From assembly GCA_044222185.1 (NCBI GenBank), contig JBGANV010000002.1:128001-192000 (forward strand): 64,000 nucleotides of DNA, in the 5' to 3' direction. Made by a program: the position numbers and the translations under genes. Positions within the stretch are counted from its first letter, which is position 1. Each line of letters starts with the position of its first letter. The DNA comes from Planctomycetota bacterium. Lineage in GTDB: Bacteria; Planctomycetota; GCA-002687715; CAIWVZ01. Shown here in pieces: positions 9,710 through 29,220 of the stretch. The notes below the pieces were generated by a model. It was not told where the DNA came from and searched no databases. It saw only the letters and a program-made list of their open reading frames with translations.

Positions 9710-11140
9710 TCAGAAGTCCAGTTGCGTGTACAAGTCCATCCGCACGGCGTTGCCGAGGTGGAGGTCGACCCACTGGGTCTCCCAGTAGATCACGTCGAGA
9801 CCCGCCTTCCAGCCCGAGCCGATGTCGTACTTCGTCGCAAGATAAAGCGTCCAGTTGAGATCACGGTACCCCGGCGCGAGGTCTTCGGAGTCCGCGTTGT
9901 CGATCGTCCCGCCGAGCGTCACGGTGAAACAATCGGTCGCTTGCAAGACGAGCTCGACCCACCCACCGATGGCATCGATCTCGTGCCCGAACGCCGCGCT
10001 GGTCGGGTCCGTGTTCAGCGTCTGGCCGATGGAGCCGCGGACGTCGCCCAAGGCCGATCCGATCTGCGCCTCCCCGCGAAGGCTCACGGGGCCAAAGAGC
10101 GGCACGGTCCAATCGACGCCGCCGAGCCACGCGGTGAAATCGTGATCGCCGCCGTAGGCGCGATCGGTCTCGTATCCGGCCCAGTACCCCCATGCGCCGA
10201 CGGCGATCACCTTTCCATCGACCCAGGACGGCAGTGTCCCCCCGAACCGACCCTGGAAATTCGGATGCCCTGAGTCGAACCCGTCGCGTTCCGTCGACTT
10301 GTAGGCGACAGGCGGCGGGGTCGTGGCGTCCACGTCCTGGTTCTTCACCGAGCCTGTGGGGCCGGCGTGCAGCCGGAACTGGAACGAGCTCGCCTTGGGA
10401 TCACCGCGATCCCAGATGAACTCCACCTGGGGTCGCCGGTGGCCGACGTTGCCCGCGTCCCACATGATCGTCTCGCCGTTCACCGAAGGAATCAGCGGGC
10501 CGATGGCGTCCCAGTCCTGACCGAAGCGGAGGGAGACCTCGTCGAACTGGGCCGTGAAGTACGCGAGCCGCAACCGCGGGACCGGGAGCGATTCGCCAAT
10601 GCCCGCCGGGAAGTTCGCAAAGTCCATCTCCAGCTTGCCCGTCACGTTGGCGCTCCCGATCTTCCCCGCATCGAGGTCGAATCCAAACCGCGTGAGACGG
10701 GAGTCGAAGGCGAAGTCGTCGTCGTTCGGTTGCGCGTTCACCGAATCCTCGGGCACGACGACGGTCGGCGTGATCTGGCTGTCCTGACGCGCGGTGTTGT
10801 AGTAGGCGTCGAGACGGAAGAAGCCGTAGAACTTCAGCGGGAACCCGGAGCGCGTGAGTTGTTTCCACGTGACGCCGTCGGCTACCCGCGCGGACACGGC
10901 GTTCACCTGCGTCTCGAGCGCTTGCCCGGCCTCGGCCTCGCTACGTTCGGCACGCACGGCGCGCAGCTCGGCCTCGAGCGCTTCGTTGCGCCGCTCGCTG
11001 CGCTCGAGCCGCTCGAGGATCCGCTGGGTGCGGTCCTCAAGCTCCTGGAAGCGGCGATCATCGCCGGCCCGCCCGTCCTGGCCCCGAACACACAGCGCCG
11101 CGAGGCACGCGACGCCGATCACGATCCCGGTCGACTTCAT
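9710..11140 (-). CDS. DcaP-like trimeric outer-membrane porin
   Basis: Signal peptide, N-terminal coiled coil, LKFYGFFRLDA, SRLTRFG, GKLEMDF, PRLRLAY, FGQDW, C-terminal YTQLDF beta-signal. Confidence 0.75.
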   Translation of the reverse strand: MKSTGIVIGVACLAALCVRGQDGRAGDDRRFQELEDRTQRILERLERSERRNEALEAELRAVRAERSEAEAGQALETQVNAVSARVADGVTWKQLTRSGFPLKFYGFFRLDAYYNTARQDSQITPTVVVPEDSVNAQPNDDDFAFDSRLTRFGFDLDAGKIGSANVTGKLEMDFANFPAGIGESLPVPRLRLAYFTAQFDEVSLRFGQDWDAIGPLIPSVNGETIMWDAGNVGHRRPQVEFIWDRGDPKASSFQFRLHAGPTGSVKNQDVDATTPPPVAYKSTERDGFDSGHPNFQGRFGGTLPSWVDGKVIAVGAWGYWAGYETDRAYGGDHDFTAWLGGVDWTVPLFGPVSLRGEAQIGSALGDVRGSIGQTLNTDPTSAAFGHEIDAIGGWVELVLQATDCFTVTLGGTIDNADSEDLAPGYRDLNWTLYLATKYDIGSGWKAGLDVIYWETQWVDLHLGNAVRMDLYTQLDF

Positions 11141-11173
11141 GATGTGTTCTCCTATTCCTTCGAGTCCCTCGAG

Positions 11174-11491
11174 TCACGGCTTCCGCTCGATCACGTCCCG
11201 TGCCCAGGCCAGCGCGGCCATCGCTCCGGGAAAACCGATCGTGGGGATGAGCAGGAGCAGCGCGTGGTAGATCTCCTCCTTCGAGACGCCGGCCTTCAGC
11301 GCCTTGCGAACGTGCGCGTGGAGGCCGCCCTCCAGACGCGCCGCCCCCGAGATCGCAACCTTCACGAGCGCCCGCGTCTTCTCGTCGAGTGCCCCGGCAC
11401 CATGCGCCGACTGCCCGAGCGCTTCGTAGGCACGCGCCACGTCCGGGAAGGTCGTCTGGAACCACGCGTAGTGAGATGGCAGTTCGTTCAC
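11174..11491 (-). CDS. Carboxymuconolactone decarboxylase (CMD/AhpD-like) family protein
   Basis: GALDEKTRALVKVAIS, HAHVRKALKAGVSKEEI, IPTIGFP. Confidence 0.88.
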   Translation of the reverse strand: MNELPSHYAWFQTTFPDVARAYEALGQSAHGAGALDEKTRALVKVAISGAARLEGGLHAHVRKALKAGVSKEEIYHALLLLIPTIGFPGAMAALAWARDVIERKP

Positions 11492-11518
11492 GGTGAAAAT
11501 CCCCGTTTTGGGCCTTAG

Positions 11519-12646
11519 TCAGCGGGCGGATGCCTCTGCGCGAAATGCCGCCAGGAATCGCCACGCGAAGAGACCGAGGGCGCCGGTCAGCGGCGCCAGG
11601 GCGAGAAGGCTCGGCAACGTGAAGGTCGGAAGGAGCGGGGGCGCGAGGATCAGCACGATGTCCACGATCCGCCCGGCCAGGAGCACCCAGCCGACGCGGA
11701 GGATCATGTCCTCGTTCCGACGCAGCGTGCGCGGCATCAGCGTCGCGAAGGGCACGAGCCAGTTGAGTGCGACGTTCACCAGCTCGACCGCGGGCCAGCC
11801 TCCGCCGCTCCGCGCGGTGTACCAGGCCGTCTCCTCCGGCATGTTCGTGTACCAGACGAGCATGTACTGACAGAAACGGATGTAGCCCCAGAACAACGTG
11901 AGCGACAGCGCGACCTTGCCGAGGTCGTCGAAGCCATCCGTCGTGATTCCGCGATGGCTCCCGGCTCGACGAGACAACACGGACATCACCATCACGAGCG
12001 CGACGCCAGACAGCGCGATCCCGCTCATGATGAGGAGGGCGTACATCGTGCTGAACCACGCAGGCTCGATGGACTGGAACCAATCGATCGACGCCACGCT
12101 GAACGTGACGGCAAACACGAGGAGGAACACGGCCGAGTCCCGCAACGCCCGGTACCGACTGCCGGACGATGGCGCGGACGACGCGTGCCGGAGGCTCGCG
12201 CCCAGCCGCGAGGCGAGCCAAAGCCACATCGCGAGGACGAGGAGGAGTCGCGCCGCGAAGAACGGCGTGTTCAACCAGCCCGCCCGATGCGACGTGGCGT
12301 GCGCGCCGTCTCCGCCGGCGTGAGCCCAGGAGTACAGCGCGCTCGTGCCGAAGATGATCAGGACGCCGAAAGCGGCTGCGACGGGCAACGTCCGCCCCAT
12401 GGCGTCGATCACCGGTCGGAACGGGATCGCCCAGCGTGCGCTCGTCAGCTCGCGGATGGCGGCGAAGAACGGACCGGCGACGGCAAACCCGAGAAGCGCG
12501 AGGAATCCCATGAGGACGCCGGCCCACGAGGCCCTGGCATCCAGATAGAGCCCGAGGACGAACACGGCGGCGCCGCCGAGGGCCATCGCACGGAAGACGC
12601 GCTCGAGGCCCGACGCCGGGCCAGTCACCGCGGTGGTGCGGATCAT
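11519..12646 (-). CDS. actF: Alternative complex III subunit F
   Basis: LYSWAH, WLNTPFFAARL, DWFQSIEPAWFSTMY, DLGK, FWGYIRFCQYMLVWYTNMPEET; follows actE. Confidence 0.9.
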   Translation of the reverse strand: MIRTTAVTGPASGLERVFRAMALGGAAVFVLGLYLDARASWAGVLMGFLALLGFAVAGPFFAAIRELTSARWAIPFRPVIDAMGRTLPVAAAFGVLIIFGTSALYSWAHAGGDGAHATSHRAGWLNTPFFAARLLLVLAMWLWLASRLGASLRHASSAPSSGSRYRALRDSAVFLLVFAVTFSVASIDWFQSIEPAWFSTMYALLIMSGIALSGVALVMVMSVLSRRAGSHRGITTDGFDDLGKVALSLTLFWGYIRFCQYMLVWYTNMPEETAWYTARSGGGWPAVELVNVALNWLVPFATLMPRTLRRNEDMILRVGWVLLAGRIVDIVLILAPPLLPTFTLPSLLALAPLTGALGLFAWRFLAAFRAEASAR

Positions 12647-13194
12647 TTCTTCACCTCCCGCTGAAGGGCGCGCACCCGAAGGATCACCTTCCAGCGATCG
12701 TCGGGCGGAAGCTGGGCCGCGTAGGACGCCATGTTGTTCTGGCCCGTCGTCAGGATGTGGAACATCTCGCCGTCCGTGAGTTTCAGAGCATGCGCGGCCT
12801 TCATCGAGGGCGGCGCCTGCATCCCTCGGAGCACGACGGGCGGCGGCGTTTCGCCGTCAGGGCCGTGGCAGGTCATGCAATAGATCATGAAGAGACGCTC
12901 GCCCCTGGCGAGCGCGCCGGCGTCGTCGGCTCTGTAGGGGTTCGTCAGCTCGCGCCCTGCGCGGGCCTGCTCGTCGAGTCCCTTGGCGAAGTCGAAGACC
13001 TCGCTGCCGACGAGAGCCACGCCGGCCGGGAGCTCCACGGATCGCACGTTCGCCTTCACGGCGGGGGTCCGCGCCATGTCCGGGAAGAACTCGAGCCCGC
13101 GAACGGAGCCGTCGGGTGGCAACGCACTGCGCAGCACGAGAAGCAGGGCGACCGCTGCGAGCGTCGCGACGATGATTCCGCGTGATCCTTTCAT
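12643..13194 (-). CDS. actE: Alternative complex III monoheme cytochrome c subunit E
   Basis: EFFPDM, NPY...LARGERLFMIYCMTCHG, DGEMFHILTTGQNNMASYA..DRWKVI; ATGA overlap with actD. Confidence 0.85.
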   Translation of the reverse strand: MKGSRGIIVATLAAVALLLVLRSALPPDGSVRGLEFFPDMARTPAVKANVRSVELPAGVALVGSEVFDFAKGLDEQARAGRELTNPYRADDAGALARGERLFMIYCMTCHGPDGETPPPVVLRGMQAPPSMKAAHALKLTDGEMFHILTTGQNNMASYAAQLPPDDRWKVILRVRALQREVKK

Positions 13195-13709
13195 GCGATC
13201 ACCTCCCAGGTCTTCGCGGCGCCGTGGCGAACGAGGAGGGCCTCCACGTCCACCCATTCCGGCGCGTCGAGGCTGCGGGCGACGATCAAGGCGAAGCGAT
13301 CGTCCGTGACGCCCTCGATCTGCGGCGCCGGGAGTTTCCCAGGGCGAAGCCCCGACCTGACGATCACGGCGAACACGGTCGCGAGCCCGGCACAGAGGAT
13401 CGTGAGTTCGAACGCCACGGGCATGAACGCCGGGAACGAGTTCCACGGCTTGCCTCCCACGTCGATGGGCCAGTCCGCCGCCGAAGCCCAGTACTGCAAG
13501 CCAAACCCGGCGGCGAGCCCGAACAAACCAGCGCACAGCGTCACCCATGGAAGGCGCGAGCGGCGAAGCTGGAGGAGATCATCCAGCCCGTGCACCGGGT
13601 AGGGCGTGTGCGCGTCGAGGATGCGGAGATCCGCACGCCGACAAGCACGAGCCGCCGCGAGGAAGGACGTCTCGTCGGTGAAGACTCCGAACTGCAATCG
13701 GCGGTTCAT
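13191..13709 (-). CDS. actD: Alternative complex III subunit D (DUF3341)
   Basis: LDAHTPYPVHGLD, DWPIDVGGKP, PAFMPVAFELTIL, TDDRFAL; ATGA overlap with actC. Confidence 0.92.
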   Translation of the reverse strand: MNRRLQFGVFTDETSFLAAARACRRADLRILDAHTPYPVHGLDDLLQLRRSRLPWVTLCAGLFGLAAGFGLQYWASAADWPIDVGGKPWNSFPAFMPVAFELTILCAGLATVFAVIVRSGLRPGKLPAPQIEGVTDDRFALIVARSLDAPEWVDVEALLVRHGAAKTWEVIA

Positions 13710-15139
13710 GAGTGCGCCTCCCGATCGTGCCCGCCGTGTCCCTGGCCGAGCACCGTCTTCACCTCGAACATGGAGATCATGGGTCCGAAGCGACAGAAGA
13801 GCAGGAACGCCGTGAAGAAGAGACCGAAGGCTCCGATCATGGCCCCGCCTTCGATCCACGTCGGGCAGTATCCCGCCCACGTCGACGGGAGGAACTCCCG
13901 CGTGAGCGAGGTGACGATGATCACGAAGCGCTCGAACCACATGCCCACGTTCACGACGAGTGAGAGCACGAAGACGGCGGGGATCGAATAGCGGACGCGC
14001 CGGAACCACAGCAGCTGCGGCGCGATCACGTTGCACGCGAACATCGTCCAGTAGGCCCACGCGAACGGACCCGCCATGCGATTCTTGAAGGCGAATTGCT
14101 CGTAGGGATTGCCCGACCACCACGCCGTGAACAGCTCGGTGACGTAGGCGAGCCCGACGATCGTCCCGGTGAAGACCAGGATCCTGCACATGGCGAGGAT
14201 GTGCCGCTGCGTGATGTAGTTCTCGAACCTCATCACGCGCCGCGCGATGATCATGAGCGTGAGCACCATCGCGAAGCCAGAGAAGACGGCGCCGATGACG
14301 AAGTACGGAGGGAAGATGGTGGTGTGCCAGCCCGGAACGATGGACGTGGCGAAATCCATGCTCACGACGCTGTGGACGGAAACGACGAGCGGTGTCGCCA
14401 GCGCGGCCAGCAGCACGCATGCGATCTCATAGCGGTGCCAGGTTCGCGCCGACCCGCTCCAACCGAGGCTGAGCCACCCAAAGAGCTTCTTGCGCAGGCC
14501 GCGGGCGCGATCCCGGATCGTCGCCAGGTCGGGGATCAGGCCCAGGTACCAGAACAGCAGCGAGATCGTGAAGTACGTCCCGATGGCGAAGACGTCCCAG
14601 AGCAAGGCCGACCGGAAGTTCACCCACAGCGAGCCACGCGTGTTCGGATAGGGAAACACCCAGAGCGCGAGCCACGGCCGCCCCATGTGGATCACGGGGA
14701 ATATGCCGGCACAGATGACGGCGAAGATCGTCATCGCTTCGGCGGAGCGATTGATCGAGGTTCGCCACTTCTGCCGGAGCAGGAGGAGCACCGCCGAGAT
14801 CAACGTGCCGGCGTGACCGATTCCGACCCAGAACACGAAGTTCGTGATGTCGAACGCCCAGCCGACGGAGTTGTTGAGGCCCCACGTCCCGATCCCTGTG
14901 GCGATCTGGTAGCCCACGCACCAGACCCCGTACCCGAGTGCGACGACGGCCGCGACGAACGCGCCGTACCACAGCCCCGTCGGTCGCCCCTCGATGGGCG
15001 AGCACACGTCGCGAGTGACGTCCGACGGGCGAAGCCCTCCCTTGATCACGGGTGCATCGTGTGGGTCGACGTCGTGGGCCGGTGCTTGGGCCGTCGAGGG
15101 GCGACTCGCGGGAACATCGATCAAACCGGACGTCTGCAT
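13706..15139 (-). CDS. actC: Alternative complex III subunit C (NrfD/PsrC family quinol-binding)
   Basis: WAFDITNFVFWVGIGHAGTLISA, WRTSINRSAEAMTIFAV, HMGRPW, SVHSVVSMDFA, GMWFERFVII. Confidence 0.95.
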   Translation of the reverse strand: MQTSGLIDVPASRPSTAQAPAHDVDPHDAPVIKGGLRPSDVTRDVCSPIEGRPTGLWYGAFVAAVVALGYGVWCVGYQIATGIGTWGLNNSVGWAFDITNFVFWVGIGHAGTLISAVLLLLRQKWRTSINRSAEAMTIFAVICAGIFPVIHMGRPWLALWVFPYPNTRGSLWVNFRSALLWDVFAIGTYFTISLLFWYLGLIPDLATIRDRARGLRKKLFGWLSLGWSGSARTWHRYEIACVLLAALATPLVVSVHSVVSMDFATSIVPGWHTTIFPPYFVIGAVFSGFAMVLTLMIIARRVMRFENYITQRHILAMCRILVFTGTIVGLAYVTELFTAWWSGNPYEQFAFKNRMAGPFAWAYWTMFACNVIAPQLLWFRRVRYSIPAVFVLSLVVNVGMWFERFVIIVTSLTREFLPSTWAGYCPTWIEGGAMIGAFGLFFTAFLLFCRFGPMISMFEVKTVLGQGHGGHDREAHS

Positions 15140-15148
15140 GGCGCCTCC

Positions 15149-18109
15149 TCACGACTCCCGGTTGCGGATTTGAGCGAGGTAACGGACCGACGGTCGCACG
15201 TTCAGCTCCTCGAGGACGCGATAGGACCTCACCGACTCCGCCTTCTTCGAGACCGCGCTCTTCGGATCGGCCAGGTTGCCGAACGTGATGGCGCGCGTCG
15301 GACACGACTGCGCACAGGCGGTCGTGAATTCGCCGTCGCGGAGCGGCTCGCCGCGGCGCTTCGCATCAAGCGACGCATCGCGGATCCGCTGGACGCACAA
15401 GCTGCACTTCTCCATCACGCCACGGCTGCGGACGGTCACGTTGGGATTCAGCGCGAGATTCGCCAGCTGGTCGTCGTGGGGGTAATCGAACCAGTTGAAG
15501 CGACGGACCTTGTAGGGGCAGGTGTTGGCGCAATAGCGCGTGCCCACGCAGCGGTTGTAGACCTGCTGATTGAGCCCGTCCTCGGAATGGACCGTCGCGA
15601 GAACCGGGCACACGGCCTCGCACGGCGCATTGCCGCAGTGCTGGCACATCATCGGCTGATGCGCGACGTGGACGTCGTCGCCGTCGCCTTGCGCATAACG
15701 ATCCACGCGCATCCAGGCCATGTCGCGATGACGGCGAACCTCGTCCCGACCGACGACGGGAATGTTGTTCTCCGCCTGGCACGCAATCACGCACGCGGAG
15801 CATCCGTTGCAGGCATTCACGTCGACGGCGAGACCCCAACGAGGCCCGTCCGTCGTGTGGTCCTCGGGCCACATGCCGGGCTCCGGCCCTCCTTCGAGTC
15901 CGAGCGCCTCAGCCGGGTTGCGGCGGAATTCGCCCAGCGATGCCGAACGCACGGCGTCGCGCACCTCGCCGCCCACCGGCGCGAGATGCGGTGGAATATC
16001 GAGGCTCTGATACTCCTGGACCGTCGCCAGTTCGACGTGGGCGGCGGTGCGCGTGATCCGGCACGTGCGAACGTCGGTGCGGACGCAGCGGTCCGCGAAA
16101 GCGAGGAGCGGCGCGACGTTCACGCCGATCACGCCGCCGGCCGTCACTGCGGGGTGGGCGTCGACCCAGGCGGGACCCGCGTTCGCGAAACGATCGGTCC
16201 CCACGCGTCCATGCCCGAGCGGCATGGCGACGACTCGATCGTGCTGTCCAGGCTGCAGATGTACGGGCAGCTCGACGACGGGCGCTCCCCCACCACACTC
16301 GACTCGCACCACGTCGCCTTCCCCCACACCGATCTCACGTGCCGCGAGCGGCGACAACGACACCCACGACTCCCATGCGAGCCGGGTGACGGGGTCGGCC
16401 ATCTCCTGCAACCACGGATTCTGGGCGTGGCGGCCGTCGAGCAGCGCGGCCGTGGGATGGAGCACGAGCGCGAACGTCCCCGCAGCGGGAGGCGACGTCC
16501 TCGGCGCGGCTGCCAGATCGACGGCACCCGCGCCGCGGCCGCCCGTCGCCGGCGCCGGGACGACGACCGAACCCTCGCGCTGCACCTTGCCGAAGAATCG
16601 CCGGAACGGCCCGCCATCCGTGAACCGTGGATGGATCTCGCGCTCCCACGTCTCGCGCACCAGCTCCGCATCGGATCGTGTATCGCCCATCCATCGCGCG
16701 AGCGAGGCGCGAAGCGTGCGTGTCGAACGAAGCGGTTGCGACGCCGGCTGCTGGAGGCAGAACACGCCAGCCTGGGGCTCGGCATCTCCCCACGCCTCCA
16801 GTGCATGAGGCTCGGGGCACACCCAGTGAGCCAGCTCCGTGGTCTCGTCCTTCAACGACGCGACCGAGATCACGAGCCTGGCCTTGCGCAGTTGTTGCGA
16901 CAACCCGCCCGCACCGGGCAGGTCGTACGCCGGATTGCAGCCGGCGACGATCAACAGATCGACGCCGCCTGCGTCCAGCTCGTCACGAAGACCGGCGAGC
17001 TCGGCGTCGGACCCCCGGCGCTGGAACGACAGTCGTTCCAGGTCGAGGGTCGTGCCGAAGGCACCGAGCGCGCCGTTGATGTTGTCGACCCGAAGCTGGG
17101 TGTCCACGTCGTTGACACCGCACACGACCAGGGCGCGGCCGCGCGCGGCGACGAGCTCCGCCGCCAGCCGCGAGAGTTCCGATGCACGCGGCACTTCTCG
17201 CGCGACGTCCGTCGACCCGCCTCGCAGTCCGGACGCGACGGCCGCGTGGAGGGCAGCAATGGCCCCCTGGATTTCCCAGGGCGCGACCCGGAACCGCTCG
17301 TCGGCGCATCCGCCCGTCACCGTCATGCGTGACTCGAATTGCCAATGGCGCGCCATGCGACTCGACGTGTCGTCGGGGTTGCGGCGCCGAGACCAGGCGG
17401 CCGCGTGTTCCACCGGCGAGATCCACGGTCCGAGGAAGTCCGCCTCGAACGAGGCGATGACGTCGGCCCGGTCGAATCGATGGCGCGGGATGGCGCGGAC
17501 GCCGTGCGTCTTCGAGCAGGACTCGGCCATCGCCGAGGCGGACAGCGCGTCGTAGCTCACGTGCCGCGCGTCTCGGAAGCTCTGGAGAAACCGCCCGATC
17601 ACGCGGTTCGTGCTGGGGCTCGTCACCGATCCGGTGAGGAGCCGCACGCGGCCCCCGCCGTCGCGCACCGCCTGCAGTGCCGCGGTGATCTCCCGGTCCG
17701 CGTCTGCCCACGACGCAGGCTGCCGATTGCGCTGCGGTCCGTCGAAGCGGTGAGAATCGTAGAGGCCGATCACGGTCGCCTGACCCACGGCGCACAATCC
17801 GCCATCCGAAACCGGGTGCCCGGGCAGCCCCTCCAGCTTGACGGGCCGCCCGTCGAGGCACGTGGCGCGGACACCGCACCCTGCCGAGCAGCCCTGGCAC
17901 GTCGTCGCGATGGCGTAGCGGCGGCCCGGAACCACTCCCTCGCTCGGCGCGAGCGGCGCCACGATCTTGGACCCGGGAGCGCGCGAGCACCCGGCGACGC
18001 TCGCGGCTGCGATCCCGAAGCCGACCATCCGCAGGAAGGAACGCCGTGACGGCTCGGTCGTCTCGAACGGGAGGATCACGTCGTCGGCGTTGTGGGATTT
18101 CGCAGTCAT
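15149..18109 (-). CDS. actB: Alternative complex III subunit B (molybdopterin-oxidoreductase-like plus Fe-S domain), Tat lipoprotein
   Basis: SRRSFL Tat motif with VAGC lipobox, GRPVKLEG, NPWLQEMADP, CNGCSACVIACQAENN, CQHCGNAPCEAVCPV, CVGTRYCANTCPY, MEKCSLC, CAQSCP. Confidence 0.95.
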   Translation of the reverse strand: MTAKSHNADDVILPFETTEPSRRSFLRMVGFGIAAASVAGCSRAPGSKIVAPLAPSEGVVPGRRYAIATTCQGCSAGCGVRATCLDGRPVKLEGLPGHPVSDGGLCAVGQATVIGLYDSHRFDGPQRNRQPASWADADREITAALQAVRDGGGRVRLLTGSVTSPSTNRVIGRFLQSFRDARHVSYDALSASAMAESCSKTHGVRAIPRHRFDRADVIASFEADFLGPWISPVEHAAAWSRRRNPDDTSSRMARHWQFESRMTVTGGCADERFRVAPWEIQGAIAALHAAVASGLRGGSTDVAREVPRASELSRLAAELVAARGRALVVCGVNDVDTQLRVDNINGALGAFGTTLDLERLSFQRRGSDAELAGLRDELDAGGVDLLIVAGCNPAYDLPGAGGLSQQLRKARLVISVASLKDETTELAHWVCPEPHALEAWGDAEPQAGVFCLQQPASQPLRSTRTLRASLARWMGDTRSDAELVRETWEREIHPRFTDGGPFRRFFGKVQREGSVVVPAPATGGRGAGAVDLAAAPRTSPPAAGTFALVLHPTAALLDGRHAQNPWLQEMADPVTRLAWESWVSLSPLAAREIGVGEGDVVRVECGGGAPVVELPVHLQPGQHDRVVAMPLGHGRVGTDRFANAGPAWVDAHPAVTAGGVIGVNVAPLLAFADRCVRTDVRTCRITRTAAHVELATVQEYQSLDIPPHLAPVGGEVRDAVRSASLGEFRRNPAEALGLEGGPEPGMWPEDHTTDGPRWGLAVDVNACNGCSACVIACQAENNIPVVGRDEVRRHRDMAWMRVDRYAQGDGDDVHVAHQPMMCQHCGNAPCEAVCPVLATVHSEDGLNQQVYNRCVGTRYCANTCPYKVRRFNWFDYPHDDQLANLALNPNVTVRSRGVMEKCSLCVQRIRDASLDAKRRGEPLRDGEFTTACAQSCPTRAITFGNLADPKSAVSKKAESVRSYRVLEELNVRPSVRYLAQIRNRES

Positions 18110-23216: not shown

Positions 23217-24704
23217 TCAGACGCTCATGGGGAATTCGCGGAAGCCGAAGCCCGTGCTCGCGCGGTGATCGTGCGGGTCCTCGAGCATCTCGATGGCCTG
23301 CTCGCGTTGCATCGGCGGAATCACCACGCGCTCCTCCATCGACGCGAGGGACGTCATCTTGTAGATCGCGTCGGCCTCGATCGGCGTGCTGTCGGCCTCA
23401 CGTAGCGCTCGCTCGGCCGCGTCGCGCGTCACGTCGCCGACGGTCACGTGGCGGCGCCACAATCGAACGGCCATCTGCTTGCGAAGCGCGTAGCGCACCT
23501 TCCCGTCGTTGCCCGCGGCGAAGAGCCGGCCCAGGTAGGCGATGGGGGCACGCGCCTTCTCGATGTCGCCAAACAGACCGTCGATGTCGTTCGTGACGAC
23601 GTTGCCCCGCGACTGCGACATCACCGGCAGGAGCGGCGGCACGTAGAAGAGCATGGGGAACGTGCGGAACTCCACGTGGAGCGGCAGCGCCAGCTTCCAG
23701 ATCTTCGTGAACGAGTAGATGGGCGACCGCCGTGCGGATTCGATGACGGGCTCGGGCACGCCGTTTCGCCGCGCGCCCTCGATGACCTCGGGGTCGTCCG
23801 GATCGAGGATCAGGTCGCGTTCGGCATCGACGAGTTCGTGATCGGGCTTCAGCGCCGCGGCGCGGATCCGGTCGGCGTCATAGAGCACGTTGCCGAGGTA
23901 GCGAATGCGCCCCACGCAGCTGTGGAAGCACGCCGGCGCCTGCCCGGACTCGAGTCGCGGGAAGCACAGGATGCACTTCTCCGACTTGCCGGTCGCCCAG
24001 TTGTAGTACGTCTTCTTGTATGGGCAGGCGGCGACGCACGCGCGCCACGCGCGGCACCGCTCCTGGTTGAGGAGGACGATGCCGTCCTCACCCCGCTTGT
24101 AGAGCGCACCCGATGGGCACGCGGCGACGCAGGACGGGTTGAGGCAGTGATTGCAGATGCGCGGCAGGTAGAAGAACGCCATGCGCTCGATTTCGAGCAT
24201 CTGCTGGCGCACCGCGGGGTCGAGCCCCTCGAGGTTCGGATCGTTCGCGGCATAGACGGACGACCCGCCGAGATCGTCGTCGAAGTTCGGACCCGACTCG
24301 ATGTTCAACTGCTCGCCGGTGATCATCGAGACCGGCACGGCAGTCGGCTGATCGTCACCCTCGGGCGCGTTGAACAGGTCCTGATACTTGTAGGTCCATG
24401 GCTCGTAGTAGTCGTCCATCGAAGGCATGGACGGGTTGTGGAAGATGTTGGGGATGAGGCGCGTCTTGCTCGTCGATCGCAGCCACAACTCGCGCCCGTC
24501 CGTCTGCCAGCCGCCCTTGTAGCCGGCCTGGTCTTCCCATTTGGACGGATAACCGGTCCCCGGTTTCGTCTCGACGTTGTTCCACCACATGTACTCCGTG
24601 CCTTCACGGTCGGTCCATATGTTCTTGCACGCGACGCTGCACGTGTGACAACCGATGCACTTGTCGAGATGGAAGAGGAGGGAGATCTGCGATCGGACGT
24701 CCAT
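23217..24704 (-). CDS. narH: Nitrate reductase / nitrite oxidoreductase beta subunit
   Basis: FHLDKCIGCHTCSVACKN, WNNVETKPG, PRICNHCLNPSCVAACP, CRAWRACVAACPY, KCILC; an alternative GTG start at 24737 would overlap the narG stop. Confidence 0.96.
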   Translation of the reverse strand: MDVRSQISLLFHLDKCIGCHTCSVACKNIWTDREGTEYMWWNNVETKPGTGYPSKWEDQAGYKGGWQTDGRELWLRSTSKTRLIPNIFHNPSMPSMDDYYEPWTYKYQDLFNAPEGDDQPTAVPVSMITGEQLNIESGPNFDDDLGGSSVYAANDPNLEGLDPAVRQQMLEIERMAFFYLPRICNHCLNPSCVAACPSGALYKRGEDGIVLLNQERCRAWRACVAACPYKKTYYNWATGKSEKCILCFPRLESGQAPACFHSCVGRIRYLGNVLYDADRIRAAALKPDHELVDAERDLILDPDDPEVIEGARRNGVPEPVIESARRSPIYSFTKIWKLALPLHVEFRTFPMLFYVPPLLPVMSQSRGNVVTNDIDGLFGDIEKARAPIAYLGRLFAAGNDGKVRYALRKQMAVRLWRRHVTVGDVTRDAAERALREADSTPIEADAIYKMTSLASMEERVVIPPMQREQAIEMLEDPHDHRASTGFGFREFPMSV

Positions 24705-24733: not shown

Positions 24734-27700
24734 TCACCAGCTCAGACGTGGAAGCTTGCGGACGAGGATGTGGGTGTCCCGGTTGCAGCCCGTCGGTCCC
24801 CAGTAATTGAAGTGGTAGGTGAACTGGCCGTATCCGCCGACCATGAGGTTCGGCTTGAGCCGCGTTCGTGTGAGGCTGTTGTGCCCGCCCGCGCGGCGGT
24901 CACCGCGCAGCGGAGATCGCGGCACGCCGTAGGTGCGCTCCGGCGAGTGGTAGATGATGCAGATGCCTCGCGGGATGCGTGCACTGACGGCCGCACGCGT
25001 GACGACGACGCCGTGGTCGTTGTGGACCTCGACCCAGTCGTTGTCCTCGATGCCGATGCTGCTCGCGTCGCGATCGTTCATCCAGAACGGGTCGCAGCCG
25101 CGCGAAAGCGTCGTCATCCGTTGGTTGTCGCCGTAGGTCGAATGGATGTGCCATTTCCCGTGCGGCGTGAGGTAGTTGAGCATCAGCGTGGCACCCTCGG
25201 CCGTGCTGAAGCGCAGATCCGAGTACTCGTCGGGCTTGGGCTTCGGTTTGTAGGTCGGAAGGTGCTCACCGAACTGCAGGTAACCCGGGTGGTCCAGGTA
25301 GAAGTGCTGACGGCCCGTGAGCGTGCGCCACGGCACGAGGTGCTCGCGGTTGTAGGTGAACGGCGCATACGCGCGGCCATCGGTGACGAGGCCCGACCAC
25401 ATGGGGCTGTTCAACAATCGGCGCGGCTGCGATTGGAGATCCTGGTAGCGCATCCGCGTGGCGCGGGTCGGATCTGCGAGCTTCGTCAGCGAGAGACCTG
25501 TCTTCTGCTCCATGTCGCGATAGGAGCGCCACGCGAGCTCGCCGTTCGTGACCGTCGCGAGCGTGAGGACGACGTTGGCCGCGTCCTTCGCTTCGGCGAG
25601 CGACGGATACGACTTGCCGGCCCACGTCTGCGTGGGACCCTCACGCGCGAGGTCGTCATAGAAGTCGTCGACCGGGTACCACGTGCCGTGAGCACCGAGG
25701 CCCGTCTCCCGGACTTTGGGTCCATAGGAGACGAACATGTTGTAGAGGTTGGCGTAGTCACGCTCGACGATCTTCATCCCAGGCATGGTCTTGCCCGGAA
25801 TCGCTTCGCATTCGCCGTTGATCCAATCGCGGATCTGCGGCTGCGCGATTTCCGCGGCCGTGTCGTGGGCCAGCGGTGAACAAACGAGATCCCGCGTCTT
25901 GCCCGGGAGATGTCGGACCGCAAGCTTGGAGAACTCGCGTGCGACGGATTTGAAGATGTCCCAGTCGCTTCGTGACTCCCAGCACGGAGGCACGGCTTCG
26001 GCCAGCGGGTGGATGAAGCTGTGCATGTCCGTCGAGTTGAGGTCCGCCTTCTCGTACCAGGTGGCCGCGGGGAGGATCACGTCCGAGTACAGCGCGGACG
26101 TATCCATGCGGAAATTCAGATCGACGACGAGGTCGATCTTCCCTTGCGGTGCCTGGGCGAGCCACTCGACCTGCTTCACGGAGTCCGCGGCCAGGTCCTT
26201 CGACACGCGATTGGTGTGAGTCCCGAGATAGTGATCGAGGAAGTACTCGTGACCCTTGGCGGACGACATGAGCGCGTTGCCACGCCAGATGAACCACACC
26301 CGAGGCCATGAAGCCTCCGCGTCCGGCCGCTCGATGGCGAACTTCAGTTCGCGGCTCTTCAGGCGAGCGACGACCCAATCGACGATCGCTTTCTCGTCCT
26401 TCGCACCGGCAGCTTCGGCCTCCTTGACGAGGTCCAGCGTGTTGCGGTCGAACTGGGGGTAGAACGGCAGCCAGCCGTTGCGCACGGCGCGCACGTTCAC
26501 GTCGACCGTGTGACCTTCCGCCAGGCTACCCGGCGGCTGGTCCGGCGGCACCGTGTGATAGTCGCGGAAGCTCTTCTCGTACCGCCACTGATCGCTGTGG
26601 ACGTAGTGCCAGCTCGGGCCGTTCTGCAGACGCGAGGGTGGGAACCAATCCTTCGCCATGGCGATGTTCGACCATGGCTCCATCGGCGCGAGCTTCTCTT
26701 GACCGACGTAATGCGCGAGACCGCCGCCGTTCACCCCCACGCACCCGCAGAACATCAGGGCGTGGATCGCCGCCCGATACATCAAGTTCGCGTGATACCA
26801 GTGGTTGATACCGGCCCCGATCACGACCGTGCACTTGCCACCAGTGTGCTCCGCCGTCGACGCCCACTCGCGCGCGAAGCGGATCAACGTCTCGCGGCCG
26901 ACACCGGTGTACTTCTCCGCCCACGCCGGCGTGTAGACGCGATCCTCGTCGTACGTCGTCGGATAGTCGCCGCTGAGCCCGCGCGGCACGCCGTATTGCG
27001 CCATGAGCAGGTCGTAGGCCGTCGTGACGACGGCCTCGGTCCCGTCACGCGTTCGCAGCCTGCGAACCGGCACACCGCGCATGACGGACGTCGCATTGGC
27101 GAAGTCATCCAGGCGGACGTCGACAACGTCGTCGTGCTTCTCGAGGAACGTCAGCTCCGCATCGATCGGCGAGCCGTCCAGGCCGTCCTTGGGCTCGAGG
27201 TTCCACTGGCCCTTCTTCTCCTGCCAGCGATGCCCCATGGAACCCATGGGCATCTTGGGCTTGTCGTCACCCCGATCCCATTGCAGGAACTTCCATTCGC
27301 CGTTTACCTCGGCCGCATAGCGCTCGAGGCGCCCCGCGCGAAGCAGCTGCCCCGCCTTCCACCCGCTCGCCGATCGCGTGAGCTCGACCAGGAACGGCGC
27401 ATCCGTGAACCGACGCGTGTAGTCGAGGAAGCTCGGGAGTTTCCGCTCGTAGTGGAACTCCTTGAGGATGACGTGATTGACCGCCATCCACCACGCGCCG
27501 TCCTGCCCCGCGTTGATCGGGATCCACTCGTCCGAGTACTTCGAGACCTGGCTGAAGTCCGGCGAGAACACGACCATCTTCGAGCCGTTGTGTCGCGCTT
27601 CCGCAGCGAAGTGCACGTCCGGCGTGCGCGTCATGTTGAGGTTCGCACCCATGACGGCGAGGAACTTCGCGTTGTACCAGTCGGCCGATTCGTTGACGTC

Positions 27701-28372
27701 CGTCTGCTCGCCCCACGTCTCGGGTGAAGCGCTCGGCAGGTCGCAGTACCAGTCGTAGAACGAGAGGTTCACACCGCCCATCAACTGGAGCATGCGCGAT
27801 CCCGCCGCATACGAGAGCATGGACATGGCGGGTATGGGTGAGAAGCCGGTGACGCGATCAGGCCCGTGCTCCTTGATCGTGTGAACCGTCGACGCCGCGA
27901 TGATCTCGAGCGCCTGGCTCCAGGAAGCGCGGCGCAGTCCGCCCTTTCCACGGGCGCGTTGATACCGGGCCCGTCGCGCCGGGTCGGACATGATGGATGC
28001 CCAGGCGTCGACCGGGTCTTCGTGCTTCGCCCGTGCTTCCTTCCACAGGTCGAGGAGCGCGCCGCGGATGTACGGATACTTCACGCGCAGCGGGCTGTAG
28101 AGGTACCACGAGTACGAGATCCCGCGCTGACACCCGCGCGGTTCGTAACCCGGCAGGCTCTTCTCGAGCGCGGGATAGTCGAGCCCCTGCATTTCCCAGG
28201 TGACGATCCCGTCCTTGACGTGGATGTTCCACGTGCACGAGCCCGTGCAATTCACGCCGTGGGTGCTGCGCACGACGCGATCGTGCTGCCAGCGGTTCCG
28301 ATAGAACTCCTCCCAAGCGCGGGTCTGAGGTTCGTGCGAGTCCTGGATGAATGGATTCTTGATGTCGCCCAC
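24734..28372 (-). CDS. narG: Cytoplasmic nitrate reductase / nitrite oxidoreductase alpha subunit (Mo-bisPGD)
   Basis: [17 protein letters not shown] (FS0), [20 protein letters not shown] (Asp Mo ligand), [21 protein letters not shown]; no Tat signal; GTG 28372 with GAGGAG RBS. Confidence 0.97.
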
Positions 28373-28377
28373 GGCTC

Positions 28378-29220
28378 TCAACTCCTCGAGACCATCGGAC
28401 GCCGCACGGCACGGAACCGGCGACGCCACAGGAAATCAGCCACCATGAGCAAGAGCGCCGCACACCCGGCGCTCACCAGGAGGAAATCCACGCGCGACGT
28501 GCCTTGCGCAGCGGTGGAAGTCTCCGCGGCGTTCTTGAGATAGGCGACGACGCCCAGGATCTCCTCGCCTTCGAGGGGATGCGTGCGGAAGACCGGGCCC
28601 ATGACCGGCGACGGCGGCGCCGAGAGCCACGCTGCGATCGCCTTGCGGCCTTCGAGACGGGCGTAGGCCGCCGTCAGATCGGGCCCGAGCGCCCCGCCGC
28701 CCAGTCCGCCGAGAGGCGCCGTCGTGTGGCACGAGTTGCACGGAGGTGCCCCGCTCTTGAACGCCGCGCGGCCGGTGAACAGCGCCTCGCCGGTCACGAT
28801 GTCTGTCGCATTCAGGGGGCGATCGCTGATCGTCAGCCCCATGAAGTGAGACTTCTCGAGCTTGGACTCCGCCGCGATCATCGCGACGAGCTTCCCCGCG
28901 AGCGCCGCGTCGATTCCCGGCAGCGTGGGCATCACGACGCCGCGGGCCTCTTCGAGCAACTTGCGGGCGTACGGGTCACCCGAATCGATGACTTTCTTCG
29001 GATCCGGAATGAACGCCGTCAGCCAGGCGCGATCCCGTCGGTCCTGGACGTTCTTGAGATCGGGGCCTGCGAGACGCCCGCCGCCGATCGTGTGGCAACT
29101 GGAGCAGTTGCGCTTGAAGAAGTCGAGCGTCTCCTCCGAAGGCGCGTCCTGGGCCCAGAGCGTGGGACACGAACTGAAGAGGACGACGAAGGTTGCGAGG
29201 GTCGCGGTGATTCGCGTCAC
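28378..29220 (-). CDS. narC: Membrane-anchored periplasmic diheme cytochrome c (NarC-like)
   Basis: Sec signal, CSSCH..GPDL..VMP and CNSCH..GPDL..PVM, C-terminal TM plus RRRFRAVRR; first gene of the nar unit. Confidence 0.82.

What the first reader, a model, noticed from the sequence alone, without database searches (positions are those of the whole stretch)
9710..29220. Nitrate/nitrite oxidoreductase and alternative complex III in one 15-gene respiratory super-operon
Seen: narC-G-H-J-I-K1-K2-actA-B-C-D-E-F-CMD-porin are co-oriented. Every junction is 33 nt or less, several are ATGA overlaps, and only 1 nt separates narK2 from actA. No heme-copper oxidase or SCO gene lies next to act. Established: ACIII is a quinol:cytochrome c oxidoreductase usually encoded and assembled with aa3/caa3 oxidases (Rhodothermus, Flavobacterium), and NarGHI normally takes electrons directly from quinol and needs no complex III. 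Inference: this may be an ACIII-NarC-NarGHI chain or supercomplex. It could route quinol to ACIII to cytochrome c to NarC/NarI for extra energy conservation, feed periplasmic N-oxide reductases, or drive reverse electron flow if the enzyme oxidises nitrite. This is the best candidate for an undescribed system in the window.
Basis: partly seen in the sequence, partly recalled or inferred. Interest (0 to 1): 0.88.

Follow-up and report, generated by a model that had tools for sequence, protein, structure and literature searches.

The report
Nitrate reductase operon with dedicated ACIII
A planctomycete from wastewater-type habitats encodes its membrane nitrate reductase and a special form of the respiratory enzyme alternative complex III in one tightly packed operon, a pairing that recurs in many bacteria and suggests a barely studied, possibly more energy-efficient way of breathing nitrate.

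Summary
On the minus strand, 9710-29220, narC-G-H-J-I-K1-K2-actA-B-C-D-E-F-CMD-porin are co-oriented. Every junction is 33 nt or less, and 1 nt separates narK2 from actA. The linkage is not chance or mis-assembly. In 41 of 57 narG-bearing Planctomycetota genomes, actD lies 8-13 kb downstream of narG on the same strand. Among the 65 closest ActB loci from several phyla where the upstream DNA is visible, 45 carry nar genes and 8 carry only narC plus a narI-like gene; none of the 80 loci has an oxidase.

This ACIII belongs to a separate clade (SH-aLRT 99) that usually keeps a four-cysteine FS0 iron-sulfur motif, which oxidase-linked and solved ACIIIs lack. Nar is the Thermus type, with the dihaem cytochrome NarC.

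Best reading (about 0.45): ACIII oxidises menaquinol and passes electrons through NarC and NarI to NarGH, adding a coupling site. This mechanism is inferred, not shown.

It is not wholly undescribed. A 2023 paper (PMC10732223) noted Nar genes upstream of this six-gene cluster in 13 MAG instances, without naming it ACIII. This scan has also reported the operon type four times in other genomes. Verdict: new variant of a known kind, uncharacterised experimentally.

The parts
30867..33089 (-). Sensor histidine kinase (HAMP, HisKA, HATPase_c). Co-oriented and upstream of the operon.
   Evidence: Pfam. Its stop overlaps the regulator's start as ATGA.
29461..30870 (-). NtrC-type sigma-54-dependent response regulator (receiver, Sigma54_activat, HTH_8).
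   Evidence: Pfam. rpoN is present in the genome.
29309..29330 (-). Perfect 8+8 palindrome GCGAAAAC-N6-GTTTTCGC, about 45 nt upstream of the -24 element. A possible activator-binding site (inference).
   Evidence: Read directly from the sequence.
29250..29265 (-). Sigma-54-like -24/-12 element TGGCAC-N5-TTGAT. It ends 30 nt before the narC start.
   Evidence: the only match in the window at one mismatch or less. About 1.85 matches are expected per 64 kb on both strands, so a hit in this 240-nt spacer by chance is unlikely. The element is not conserved upstream of narC in the other 30 loci examined.
28378..29220 (-). narC: membrane-anchored periplasmic dihaem cytochrome c. It has a signal peptide, CXXCH motifs at residues 39 and 161, invariant Met97 and Met207, and a C-terminal TM helix at 246-264 followed by a basic tail.
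   Evidence: Haem domain 1 is most like the N-terminal haem domain of F. johnsoniae ActA (6btm_A residues 57-145, E 5.6e-10).
24734..28381 (-). narG: cytoplasmic-type nitrate reductase alpha subunit. The start is TTG 28381; the alternatives are 28372 and 28429.
   Evidence: TIGR01580, 1507 bits against a cut-off of 1084. The H-x3-C-x3-C FS0 motif is present and there is no twin-arginine motif.
23217..24704 (-). narH: iron-sulfur subunit.
   Evidence: TIGR01660, 610 bits against a cut-off of 524.
22678..23214 (-). narJ: assembly chaperone.
   Evidence: Pfam Nitrate_red_del, 35.5 bits. The NCBIfam narJ score is below its cut-off.
21990..22685 (-). narI: dihaem b membrane subunit. All four haem-ligand His are present. 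Arg stands where E. coli has Lys86.
20398..21975 (-). narK1: NarK-family MFS transporter.
   Evidence: The TIGR00886 score is below its cut-off.
18798..20396 (-). narK2: NarK-family nitrate/nitrite transporter.
   Evidence: NarK and NarU models at 288-296 bits, below their cut-offs.
18119..18796 (-). actA: pentahaem cytochrome c with an N-terminal TM helix.
   Evidence: Five CXXCH motifs. Matches 6btm_A at E 1.4e-44.
15149..18109 (-). actB: Tat-exported fusion of a molybdopterin-like B1 domain and an iron-sulfur B2 domain. It keeps an FS0-type motif at C71, C74, C78 and C106.
   Evidence: Matches 6f0k_B at E 6.5e-168. Pfam Molybdop_Fe4S4 hit at residues 68-110. Cysteine map.
13706..15139 (-). 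actC: NrfD-like quinol-binding membrane subunit.
   Evidence: Matches 6btm_C at E 1.8e-182.
13191..13709 (-). actD.
   Evidence: PF11821, 164 bits. It is the only ActD match in the genome.
12643..13194 (-). actE: monohaem cytochrome c.
   Evidence: One CXXCH motif. Matches 6f0k_E at E 7.9e-13.
11519..12646 (-). actF: second NrfD-like membrane subunit.
   Evidence: Matches 6f0k_F at E 1.1e-38.
11174..11491 (-). CMD-family protein without cysteines. A lineage-specific passenger of the operon.
   Evidence: PF02627, E 5e-20. Found in 1 of 80 related loci.
9710..11140 (-). Porin-like outer-membrane protein with a signal peptide, a coiled coil and a C-terminal Phe. Lineage-specific.
   Evidence: No Pfam or NCBIfam hit. 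Two paralogues at 50-55% identity lie elsewhere in the genome, and none occurs in the related loci.

Best explanation
This is probably one sigma-54-dependent operon. It encodes a Thermus-type four-subunit nitrate reductase (NarC-NarG-NarH-NarI), the chaperone NarJ, two NarK transporters, and a dedicated alternative complex III from a distinct, mostly FS0-retaining clade.

Shown here:
- the gene content and the tight packing
- conservation of the nar-act linkage
- the separate ACIII clade
- the cofactor motifs

Inferred mechanism:
1. Menaquinol is oxidised at ActC on the periplasmic side, with proton translocation by ACIII.
2. Electrons run through the ActB clusters and the ActA and ActE haems to the two haems of membrane-tethered NarC.
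3. They then pass to the outer haem bD of NarI, cross the membrane to haem bP, and reach NarH and NarG, which reduce nitrate in the cytoplasm.

This keeps the electrogenic NarI step and adds the ACIII coupling site, so more of the roughly 0.5 V between menaquinol and nitrate is conserved. NarK1 and NarK2 import nitrate and export nitrite. The neighbouring kinase and regulator switch the operon on.

My confidence that ACIII and Nar are a co-expressed functional unit is about 0.85. The stated 0.45 is for this particular electron route.
For: 1. Packing. Junctions are 33 nt or less and 1 nt separates narK2 from actA. No sigma-70-like promoter was found inside the cluster on the coding strand, and terminator-like sites were fewer than in shuffles, 5 against 8.9.

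2. Conservation in the phylum. Of 57 narG-bearing genomes among 401 Planctomycetota, 41 have actD on the same contig and strand, 7.8-13.2 kb downstream. G018 adds one more through a contig end that reads narK1-narK2-actA.

3. Conservation across phyla. Of the 80 closest ActB loci, 65 show at least 1.5 kb upstream. Of these, 45 have co-oriented nar genes, 8 have narC plus a narI-like gene only, and 12 have neither. They come from Planctomycetota, Acidobacteriota, Zixibacteria, Myxococcota and Bdellovibrionota. No oxidase gene was found in any of the 80.

4. Separate clade. In the ActC tree all nar-linked rows fall on one side of a branch, against the oxidase-linked paralogues of the same phylum. 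Support was FastTree 99 with 83 rows and IQ-TREE SH-aLRT 99.1 with 45 rows. G005, G073 and G301 carry both a nar-linked actD and a second actD on another contig.

5. Myxococcaceae module. In 8 of 8 loci, a peroxidase gene, narC, a narI-like gene and actA-F stand together without narGHJ. The NarI-like protein keeps the two ligands of haem bD and lacks both ligands of haem bP. This ties NarC and the outer haem of NarI to ACIII independently of NarGH.

6. NarC haem domain 1 resembles the mobile sixth-haem domain of F. johnsoniae ActA. That domain is proposed to carry electrons from ACIII to its oxidase (PMC8552683, passages).

7. Few alternative acceptors. This genome shows no NirK, NirS, NrfA or NosZ. 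In 40 other carriers NirK was found in 0, cytochrome d1 in 2, a NosZ-like gene in 1 and NrfA in 17.

8. Precedents. Thermus NarC binds NarI and carries electrons (PMC7694296, passages). Haloarchaea place a Rieske/cytochrome b complex in their nar cluster (PMC3509893, passages).
Against: - NarI keeps all four haem ligands and a basic residue (Arg) at the position of the quinol-site Lys86 of E. coli. It may therefore oxidise menaquinol directly and short-circuit ACIII.
- NarC-type nar operons exist without an adjacent ACIII: G308, G140 and G302, and Thermus according to PMC7694296.
- Twelve loci of the same ACIII clade have no nar genes upstream, so this ACIII type is not restricted to Nar.
- Electron transfer from a c-type haem to NarI haem bD is probably uphill. 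This rests on recalled midpoint potentials, not on a measurement in this system.
- Co-transcription, physical association and proton stoichiometry are all untested.
Confidence: 0.45

Rival explanations
1. Parallel branches. NarGHI takes electrons directly from menaquinol at NarI as in E. coli. The co-expressed ACIII is simply the anaerobic complex III, and together with NarC it supplies c-type cytochromes for other acceptors such as cbb3- or NOR-type haem-copper enzymes, peroxidase and, where present, Nir or Nos.
For: - In Thermus, NarC is proposed to pass electrons from Nar to Nir and Nor while complex III is repressed (PMC7694296, passages).
- ACIII has been proposed to supply N2O reduction (PMC9270275, a passage citing Refojo 2012).
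- NarI here looks fully competent for quinol oxidation.
- Myxococcaceae link ACIII, NarC and a cytochrome c peroxidase.
- This genome has a ccoN-like enzyme and an 802-aa haem-copper enzyme.
Against: - The linkage is with nar itself, not with nir, nor or nos. Of 73 co-oriented ORFs downstream of actF, one was a cytochrome d1 protein and one a multihaem cytochrome.
- In 40 other carriers NirK was found in 0, cytochrome d1 in 2 and a NosZ-like gene in 1.
- This genome already has four cytochrome b homologues, one of them beside its aa3 oxidase.
Confidence: 0.3
2. Reverse or lithotrophic use. The enzyme oxidises nitrite, or NarC accepts electrons from periplasmic donors such as Fe(II)-derived cytochromes. 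ACIII then runs backwards, as its relative Qrc does, to reduce menaquinone by reverse electron flow.
For: - The order narC-G-H-J-I-K resembles the Nitrobacter nxr cluster (PMC7694296, passage).
- The nearest NCBIfam models for ActA and ActB are QrcA, QrcB and QrcC, all below their cut-offs.
- PMC10732223 found the cluster in iron- and manganese-oxidising biofilms (passages).
Against: - NarG scores as an equivalog of respiratory NarG.
- No RuBisCO was found in a genome estimated 94% complete.
- The surrounding genes are heterotrophic in character: glycoside hydrolases, peptidase and glycosyltransferases.
- No Cyc2-type or multihaem uptake genes lie in the cluster.
Confidence: 0.08
3. The six act-like genes encode a new periplasmic catalytic enzyme rather than an ACIII. 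One version is the NrfAH-like nitrite reductase proposed in PMC10732223. Another is a molybdoenzyme that still uses FS0 to feed a cofactor.
For: - ActB keeps the FS0 cysteines and a Molybdop_Fe4S4 hit.
- Nitrite is the product of the upstream enzyme.
- The authors of PMC10732223 raised this idea (section 10, read in full).
Against: - All six subunits match solved ACIII chains, ActC at E 1e-182.
- ActA has five ordinary CXXCH motifs and no CXXCK-type catalytic haem motif.
- The core Molybdopterin domain PF00384 gives no hit in ActB.
- Bdellovibrionota members are nar-linked but lack FS0.
Confidence: 0.05
4. Chance adjacency or mis-assembly at the narK2-actA junction.
For: None found. The assembly is a 16-contig draft.
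Against: - The same junction or gene order occurs in dozens of independent assemblies.
- An 8957-nt contig of run X1, which may be the source sample, spans 15638-24594 without a difference.
- Base composition is even across the junction.
Confidence: 0.01

Closest known systems
Thermus thermophilus narCGHJIKT operon (heterotetrameric NarCGHI)
   Same: The gene order is narC-G-H-J-I followed by two transporters. NarC is a periplasmic dihaem cytochrome c with a membrane anchor, and NarGH faces the cytoplasm (PMC7694296 and PMC10609526, passages).
   Different: Thermus has no ACIII in or beside the operon, and its flanks hold dnrST, drpAB and nrc (PMC7694296). Here six act genes follow with a 1-nt gap, and regulation appears to be sigma-54 dependent.
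Oxidase-linked alternative complex III (Rhodothermus marinus 6F0K, Flavobacterium johnsoniae 6BTM; also the photosynthetic Roseiflexus 6LOD and entry 8K9E)
   Same: The six subunits ActA-F stand in the same order, each matching its solved chain. ActA is pentahaem, ActE is monohaem, ActB has a Tat signal, and the B2 domain has the cysteine motifs for its clusters.
   Different: It forms a separate clade. ActB keeps a CX2CX3C...C FS0 motif that is absent from 6f0k_B, 6btm_B and 8k9e_B in the printed alignments and from 10 of 10 oxidase-linked planctomycete ActBs. It is linked to nar, never to cox. ActB is 23-35% identical to the oxidase-linked paralogues of the same phylum, against 46-55% within its own clade.
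Haloarchaeal Rieske/cytochrome b-Nar gene clusters
   Same: A complex-III-type quinol oxidase is encoded inside the nitrate reductase cluster and is proposed to feed Nar (PMC3509893, abstract and passages).
   Different: The complex III there is an unrelated Rieske/cytochrome b type. The haloarchaeal NarGH faces outward and has no NarI redox loop. Here NarGH is cytoplasmic and NarI is present.
Nitrobacter-type nitrite oxidoreductase cluster
   Same: A cytochrome c gene stands ahead of NarG-, NarH-, NarJ- and NarI-like genes and a NarK-like transporter (PMC7694296 passage; further details recalled).
   Different: No evidence of nitrite oxidation or autotrophy was found here. I know of no report of ACIII in that cluster; this is recalled, not tested.
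The conserved Nar-plus-six-gene cluster of PMC10732223 (FEMS Microbiol Lett 2023)
   Same: It has the same architecture: Nar genes upstream of a 5-haem cytochrome, a fused FeS/molybdopterin protein, NrfD, ActD, a cytochrome c and a second membrane subunit. It was seen in Planctomycetota and other MAGs, with sigma-54 and NtrC-family kinase genes nearby (section 10 and the Fig. 6 legend).
   Different: The authors said it matched no described complex and proposed an NrfAH-like nitrite reductase or an unspecified respiratory role. They did not identify it as a distinct ACIII clade, and did not note the FS0 motif, NarC, or the phylum-wide statistics.

Membership tests
Alternative complex III | Six subunits ActA-F, encoded in that order | tested here: met
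   PDB chain matches: ActA 1.4e-44, ActB 6.5e-168, ActC 1.8e-182, ActE 7.9e-13, ActF 1.1e-38. ActD matches PF11821 at 164 bits.
Alternative complex III | Pentahaem ActA and monohaem ActE | tested here: met
   Five CXXCH motifs in ActA and one in ActE. All of them are invariant in 31-row alignments.
Alternative complex III | ActB is a Tat-exported B1+B2 fusion whose B2 domain carries the cysteines for one [3Fe-4S] and three [4Fe-4S] clusters | tested here: met
   SRRSFL motif at residues 21-26, and cysteine groups at 767-777, 822-834, 854-864, 902-905 and 932-936.
Alternative complex III | The B1 domain is devoid of cofactors, with no FS0 cluster and no Mo/W-bisPGD, as in the solved structures | tested here: not met
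   The FS0 motif is present at C71, C74, C78 and C106, with a Pfam Molybdop_Fe4S4 hit. It is present in 44 of 48 nar-linked, 8 of 8 narCI and 14 of 18 other ActBs of the clade, and in 0 of 10 cox-linked ActBs. Cluster occupancy and Mo content cannot be tested with these tools, and PF00384 gives no hit. This concerns the textbook subtype, not the family as a whole.
Alternative complex III | Genetic or physical association with a haem-copper oxidase (usual, not defining) | tested here: not met
   No COX1-family hit in the window flanks or in any of the 80 related loci. In contrast, 10 of 11 full-length oxidase-type planctomycete loci have COX1 downstream.
Thermus-type NarCGHI nitrate reductase | NarG, NarH, NarJ and NarI of the respiratory cytoplasmic type | tested here: met
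   TIGR01580, TIGR01660 and TIGR00351 are over their cut-offs. NarJ is over the Pfam cut-off. All four NarI haem-ligand His are present.
Thermus-type NarCGHI nitrate reductase | A membrane-anchored periplasmic dihaem cytochrome c is encoded first in the operon | tested here: met
   Signal peptide, two CXXCH motifs, two invariant Met and a C-terminal TM helix. No direct sequence comparison with Thermus NarC was made.
Thermus-type NarCGHI nitrate reductase | NarC binds NarI and is needed for maturation of the enzyme | not tested
   Known for Thermus from two-hybrid and mutant work (PMC7694296, passages). No test of this pair was run here.
Sigma-54 promoter | -24 GG and -12 GC elements with the consensus TGGCAC-N5-TTGCW, next to an activator gene | tested here: inconclusive
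   TGGCAC-N5-TTGAT, with one mismatch in the -12 element, lies 30 nt before narC (the consensus is recalled). The activator and rpoN are present. The element is not conserved in the other 30 loci.
Nitrite oxidoreductase (Nitrobacter type) | Works in the oxidative direction in a nitrite-oxidising organism | not testable with these tools
   Only indirect evidence: no RuBisCO was found and NarG scores as a NarG equivalog.

The most novel reading that the evidence does not exclude
ACIII, NarC and NarGHI form a stable 'nitrate respirasome'. In this reading NarC is the free-standing equivalent of the mobile sixth-haem domain of Flavobacterium ActA and plugs the ACIII haem wire into haem bD of NarI. 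The long-puzzling 'dead-end' iron-sulfur wire of ACIII is the remnant of a working second electron path, which this older, FS0-retaining clade still uses. Nitrate respiration with menaquinol would then conserve roughly twice the charge per electron of textbook NarGHI. ACIII would have served anaerobic respiration before it was recruited to oxidases.
Probability: 0.25. Interest if true: 0.85.

Novelty: new variant of a known kind. Interest (0 to 1): 0.68.

Why it matters
ACIII is treated as an enzyme of aerobic or photosynthetic chains. A 2023 survey states that ActB takes part 'exclusively in aerobic respiration' and dates its origin by oxygen (PMC10100899, passages). Textbook bacterial NarGHI is said to bypass any complex III (PMC3509893, passage).

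Here, in at least 41 of 57 sampled nitrate-reducing Planctomycetota and in members of four other phyla, Nar comes with its own ACIII. If the two work in series, three things follow:
- The energy yield of nitrate respiration in abundant soil, sediment and wastewater bacteria is underestimated.
- The role of the ACIII iron-sulfur wire becomes testable in a natural variant that keeps one more cluster site.
- The evolutionary dating of ACIII by oxygen needs revision.

The Myxococcaceae variant occurs in cultured, genetically tractable bacteria. That offers an entry point for experiments on the NarC/NarI-ACIII connection.

Tried and rejected
- **Complex prediction.** ActA and ActE against NarC, each with its own alignment, gave no verdict (score 0.00 in two runs, controls not run). 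This is neither support nor evidence against.
- **RNA evidence.** No RNA holder is listed for this stretch, so co-transcription could not be examined.
- **Independent contigs.** Contigs of runs X3, X5 and X7 were too short to bridge the junction in the listed pieces. Two X7 variant rows at 18743 and 18843 with the same depth hint at one short contig across 18797, but that contig is not listed.
- **Sigma-54 conservation.** The sigma-54 motif is not conserved upstream of narC elsewhere: 1 of 31 loci, and that one is the window itself. It is therefore a local regulatory feature, not part of the operon type.
- **FS0 as the NarC docking site.** Considered and set aside. Bdellovibrionota loci have narC but no FS0 (L051, L073). 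Vicinamibacterales-type loci have FS0 but no nar genes.
- **Loss of the NarI quinol site.** Not supported. The position of E. coli Lys86 holds Arg in 43 of 43 NarI sequences of this operon type, and also in three unlinked NarC-type operons. Without a wider NarI sample I cannot say whether Arg is unusual.
- **Conserved downstream partner.** None found among 73 co-oriented ORFs after actF. Minus-strand ORFs were left out after the size limit.
- **CMD and porin as part of the system.** Rejected as conserved parts.
- **Earlier descriptions.** Seven paper searches found only PMC10732223. Subscription papers, such as Refojo 2010 and 2012, Sousa 2018 and Cava 2008, were not seen and may bear on this. 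The supplementary tables of PMC10732223 were not opened.

Full report
**What is there.** The window is G000:C6:128001-192000, from a 7.08-Mb, 16-contig genome with about 66% G+C. Record titles of its nearest relatives place it in the Planctomycetota.

On the minus strand between 29220 and 9710 lie fifteen co-oriented genes:
- narC, a dihaem cytochrome c
- narG (TIGR01580, 1507 bits), narH, narJ and narI
- two NarK-family transporters
- actA, actB, actC, actD, actE and actF
- a CMD-family gene
- a porin-like gene with no family hit

Each Act protein matches its counterpart in the solved ACIII structures: ActA 1.4e-44, ActB 6.5e-168, ActC 1.8e-182, ActE 7.9e-13, ActF 1.1e-38. ActD matches PF11821. 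It is the only ActD match in the genome.

**Packing and signals.** With the start codons best supported by Shine-Dalgarno sequences and family alignments, every junction is 33 nt or less. One nucleotide separates narK1 from narK2 and narK2 from actA. The actC/D, actD/E and actE/F junctions are ATGA overlaps.

A scan of 9500-29490 found no sigma-70-like promoter inside the cluster on the coding strand. The single hit lies in front of the next gene at 9599-9570. Terminator-like sites were fewer than in shuffles.

Upstream and co-oriented are a histidine kinase and an NtrC-type sigma-54 activator. The 240-nt spacer before narC holds TGGCAC-N5-TTGAT at 29265-29250. This is the only match in the window to the recalled sigma-54 consensus at one mismatch or less. 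rpoN is present. The motif is not found before narC in the 30 other loci examined, so regulation is local to this lineage.

**Is the linkage more than chance?** Yes.
- Among 401 Planctomycetota genomes, G000 included, 57 have narG at E 1e-150 or better and 206 have actD.
- From the printed places, 41 of the 57 have actD on the same contig and strand as narG, 7.8-13.2 kb downstream.
- In 15 genomes the two genes lie on different contigs, and in several of these narG sits at a contig end.
- One of those 15, G018, has a contig end reading narK1-narK2-actA.
- One genome, G206, has no actD match.
- Clear exceptions exist. G308, G140 and G302 have narC-type operons with at least 7 kb of downstream DNA and no act genes. 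G026 has a more distant Nar and an oxidase-linked ACIII.

Across phyla, a scan of one genome per species with ActB returned 80 loci, the best of 122 confirmed. tblastn with the window's proteins gave these counts:
- 65 loci show at least 1.5 kb upstream of act.
- 45 of the 65 have co-oriented nar genes upstream. The gene next to actA is narK2 in 19, narK1 in 7 and narI in 19.
- 8 have narC plus a narI-like gene only.
- 12 have neither.

None of the 80 loci has a hit to the genome's three haem-copper oxidase subunits. The carriers are labelled Planctomycetota, Acidobacteriota, Zixibacteria, Myxococcota and Bdellovibrionota. These loci were chosen as the nearest relatives of this ActB, so the proportions describe the clade, not ACIII in general.

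**A separate ACIII clade.** I fetched 20 regions around actD from relatives. Ten carry COX1 about 2.5 kb after actF. Their ActB is 31-35% identical to the window's, against 46-55% for the nar-linked planctomycete ones.

- In a FastTree of 83 ActC rows, a 72-row group with support 99 holds all 41 nar-linked rows, all 8 narC/narI-only rows and 23 rows of undetermined or other context. It holds none of the 8 oxidase-linked rows. Two oxidase-linked loci, L095 and L098, were dropped by my length and stop filter.
- An IQ-TREE quick search on 45 rows puts 34 nar-type rows against 11 others with SH-aLRT 99.1.
- G005, G073 and G301 carry both a nar-linked actD and a second actD on another contig; G005's second copy is oxidase-linked.
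- Inside the clade, phyla are interleaved, which suggests lateral transfer of the module. This is an inference from an unrooted tree.

**The FS0 motif.** ActB of the window has C71-x2-C74-x3-C78...C106 and a Pfam Molybdop_Fe4S4 hit. In the printed alignments, the corresponding stretch of 6f0k_B, 6btm_B and 8k9e_B has no cysteines.

Counting ActBs whose N-terminus is present:

| Context | With FS0 motif | Note |
|---|---|---|
| nar-linked | 44 of 48 | L031 keeps three of the four Cys; L051, L055 and L073 are Bdellovibrionota |
| narC/narI-only | 8 of 8 | |
| other members of the clade | 14 of 18 | the four without it are Bdellovibrionota |
| oxidase-linked | 0 of 10 | |

This confirms the lead from an earlier scan note (e1-2635388). 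In the solved ACIIIs, the [4Fe-4S] chain that points towards B1 is described either as a wire to an unknown partner or as a dead end (PMC8552683 and PMC7439408, passages). Whether FS0 is occupied here, and whether B1 binds a cofactor, cannot be told from sequence. PF00384 gives no hit.

**Nar is the Thermus type.**
- NarC has a signal peptide, two CXXCH motifs, two invariant Met and a C-terminal helix with a basic tail. All of these are conserved in 23 sequences.
- In Thermus, NarC binds NarI, is needed for maturation, and is thought to pass electrons to Nir and Nor (PMC7694296, passages).
- NarI keeps all four haem ligands. The position of E. coli Lys86 is Arg in 43 of 43 sequences.
- The best solved match of NarC haem domain 1 is the N-terminal haem domain of F. 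johnsoniae ActA (E 5.6e-10). That domain is proposed to shuttle electrons from ACIII to the oxidase (PMC8552683).

**A reduced module in Myxococcaceae.** In 8 of 8 loci of Myxococcus, Corallococcus and look-alike records, the order is an unknown gene, a dihaem cytochrome c peroxidase, a small unknown gene, narC, a 205-aa narI-like gene and actA-F. narGHJ are absent. The NarI-like protein keeps His66 and His187, the ligands of the outer haem bD. It lacks His56 and His205, the ligands of the inner haem bP. This ties NarC and the periplasmic half of NarI to ACIII independently of NarGH. I did not find this noted in earlier scan reports.

**What else could take the electrons?**
- This genome shows no NirK over the cut-off, no convincing cytochrome d1, no NrfA and no NosZ. 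It is estimated 94% complete.
- It does have an aa3 oxidase beside a cytochrome b gene, three more cytochrome b homologues, a ccoN-like gene and an 802-aa haem-copper enzyme.
- In 40 other nar-act-linked planctomycete genomes, NirK was found in 0, cytochrome d1 in 2 (one genus), a NosZ-like gene in 1 and NrfA in 17.
- No control genome rang for the d1 and NosZ searches, but real hits in G245, G356 and G061 show that these searches can find the genes.
- Of 73 co-oriented ORFs after actF, none was a conserved reductase or oxidase. They included Moco-synthesis genes, NarK, porin-like, NifU-like and regulatory genes.

**Reading.** The data show a conserved, co-packed Nar-ACIII unit. I infer a series chain: menaquinol, ACIII, NarC, NarI haem bD, haem bP, NarH, NarG. 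Using recalled potentials of about -0.07 V for menaquinone and about +0.42 V for nitrate, this is thermodynamically allowed and would add the ACIII coupling site to the NarI charge separation.

The main rival is parallel operation, with NarC as a branch point as in Thermus. The intact-looking NarI quinol site and the existence of NarC-type Nar without ACIII keep that rival alive. Nitrite oxidation and a catalytic role for the act-like complex have little support.

**Prior knowledge.** PMC10732223 (section 10 read in full) reports 13 instances of Nar genes upstream of this six-gene cluster in MAGs. The authors judged that it matched no described complex and proposed an NrfAH-like nitrite reductase or a respiratory role. 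PMC10100899 (passages) treats ActB as exclusively aerobic. This scan has reported the same operon type four times on other genomes (e1-1155353, e1-1425328, e1-2635388, e1-4443337). No experimental characterisation was found in seven searches. Subscription papers were not visible.

**Verdict.** This is a new variant of a known kind, widespread and untested at the bench.

Noticed in passing
L053:4677-16512 and the matching parts of L054, L056, L063, L067, L068, L070, L071: Myxococcaceae keep a conserved array: an unknown gene, a dihaem cytochrome c peroxidase, a small unknown gene, narC, a 205-aa narI-like gene and actA-F. narGHJ are absent. The NarI-like protein retains only the ligands of the outer haem bD. 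The array may form a quinol-to-peroxide chain.
   Followed up: partly
L054 (record titled Comamonas sp. KCTC 72670) and L056 (titled Proteobacteria bacterium): These loci sit inside the Myxococcus group in the ActC tree and are 88-89% identical to Myxococcus in the peroxidase gene. The record labels look wrong, or the assemblies are contaminated.
   Followed up: no
L011, L036, L041, L043, L045, L047, L048, L059 (Acidobacteriota, mostly Vicinamibacterales): A sub-clade of FS0-retaining ACIII stands alone, without nar or cox genes. Its neighbours include an MtrC-like multihaem cytochrome, DUF5916 proteins, Omp85 and a TonB-dependent receptor. Its electron partner is unknown.
   Followed up: partly
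L049, L050, L051, L055, L058, L064, L073 (Bdellovibrionota): ACIIIs of the same clade have lost the FS0 cysteines, yet three of them are still nar-linked with narC. A NifU-like gene follows actF in three of them.
   Followed up: partly
window 9710-11140, with paralogues at G000:C1:2159949-2161355 and C5:63036-64442: A porin-like protein family (signal peptide, coiled coil, C-terminal Phe) has no Pfam or NCBIfam match. There are three copies in this genome at 50-55% identity. In L005 an Alginate_exp-type porin occupies the same place after actF.
   Followed up: partly
window 49704-53465 (+): A 1253-aa protein with DUF4062, a NACHT-associated inactive restriction endonuclease domain, a NACHT domain and pentapeptide repeats. 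It is a candidate STAND-type defence or signalling protein.
   Followed up: no
window 4671-7760 (+), 46489-49632 (-), 33313-35346 (+), 54402-56624 (+): Four large ORFs of 677-1047 aa have no Pfam match.
   Followed up: no
window 587-3926 (+): An MBOAT and AlgX-like pair, suggesting O-acetylation of an exopolysaccharide. Three GT4 glycosyltransferases lie at 37363-44703.
   Followed up: no
window 9600-29500 in runs X1, X3, X5, X7: Near-identical DNA occurs in bioreactor and activated-sludge metagenome runs of several studies. X3 contigs of 400-700 nt show 0-8 differences. The organism or close strains therefore appear to live in wastewater-type systems.
   Followed up: partly
G302 (L118, and actD at C73:74042-74530): This is a planctomycete in which the narC-type nar operon and a nar-type actD (167 bits) lie on different contigs, with about 7 kb of non-act DNA after narK2. 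It is a natural case of unlinked partners that could serve for comparison.
   Followed up: partly
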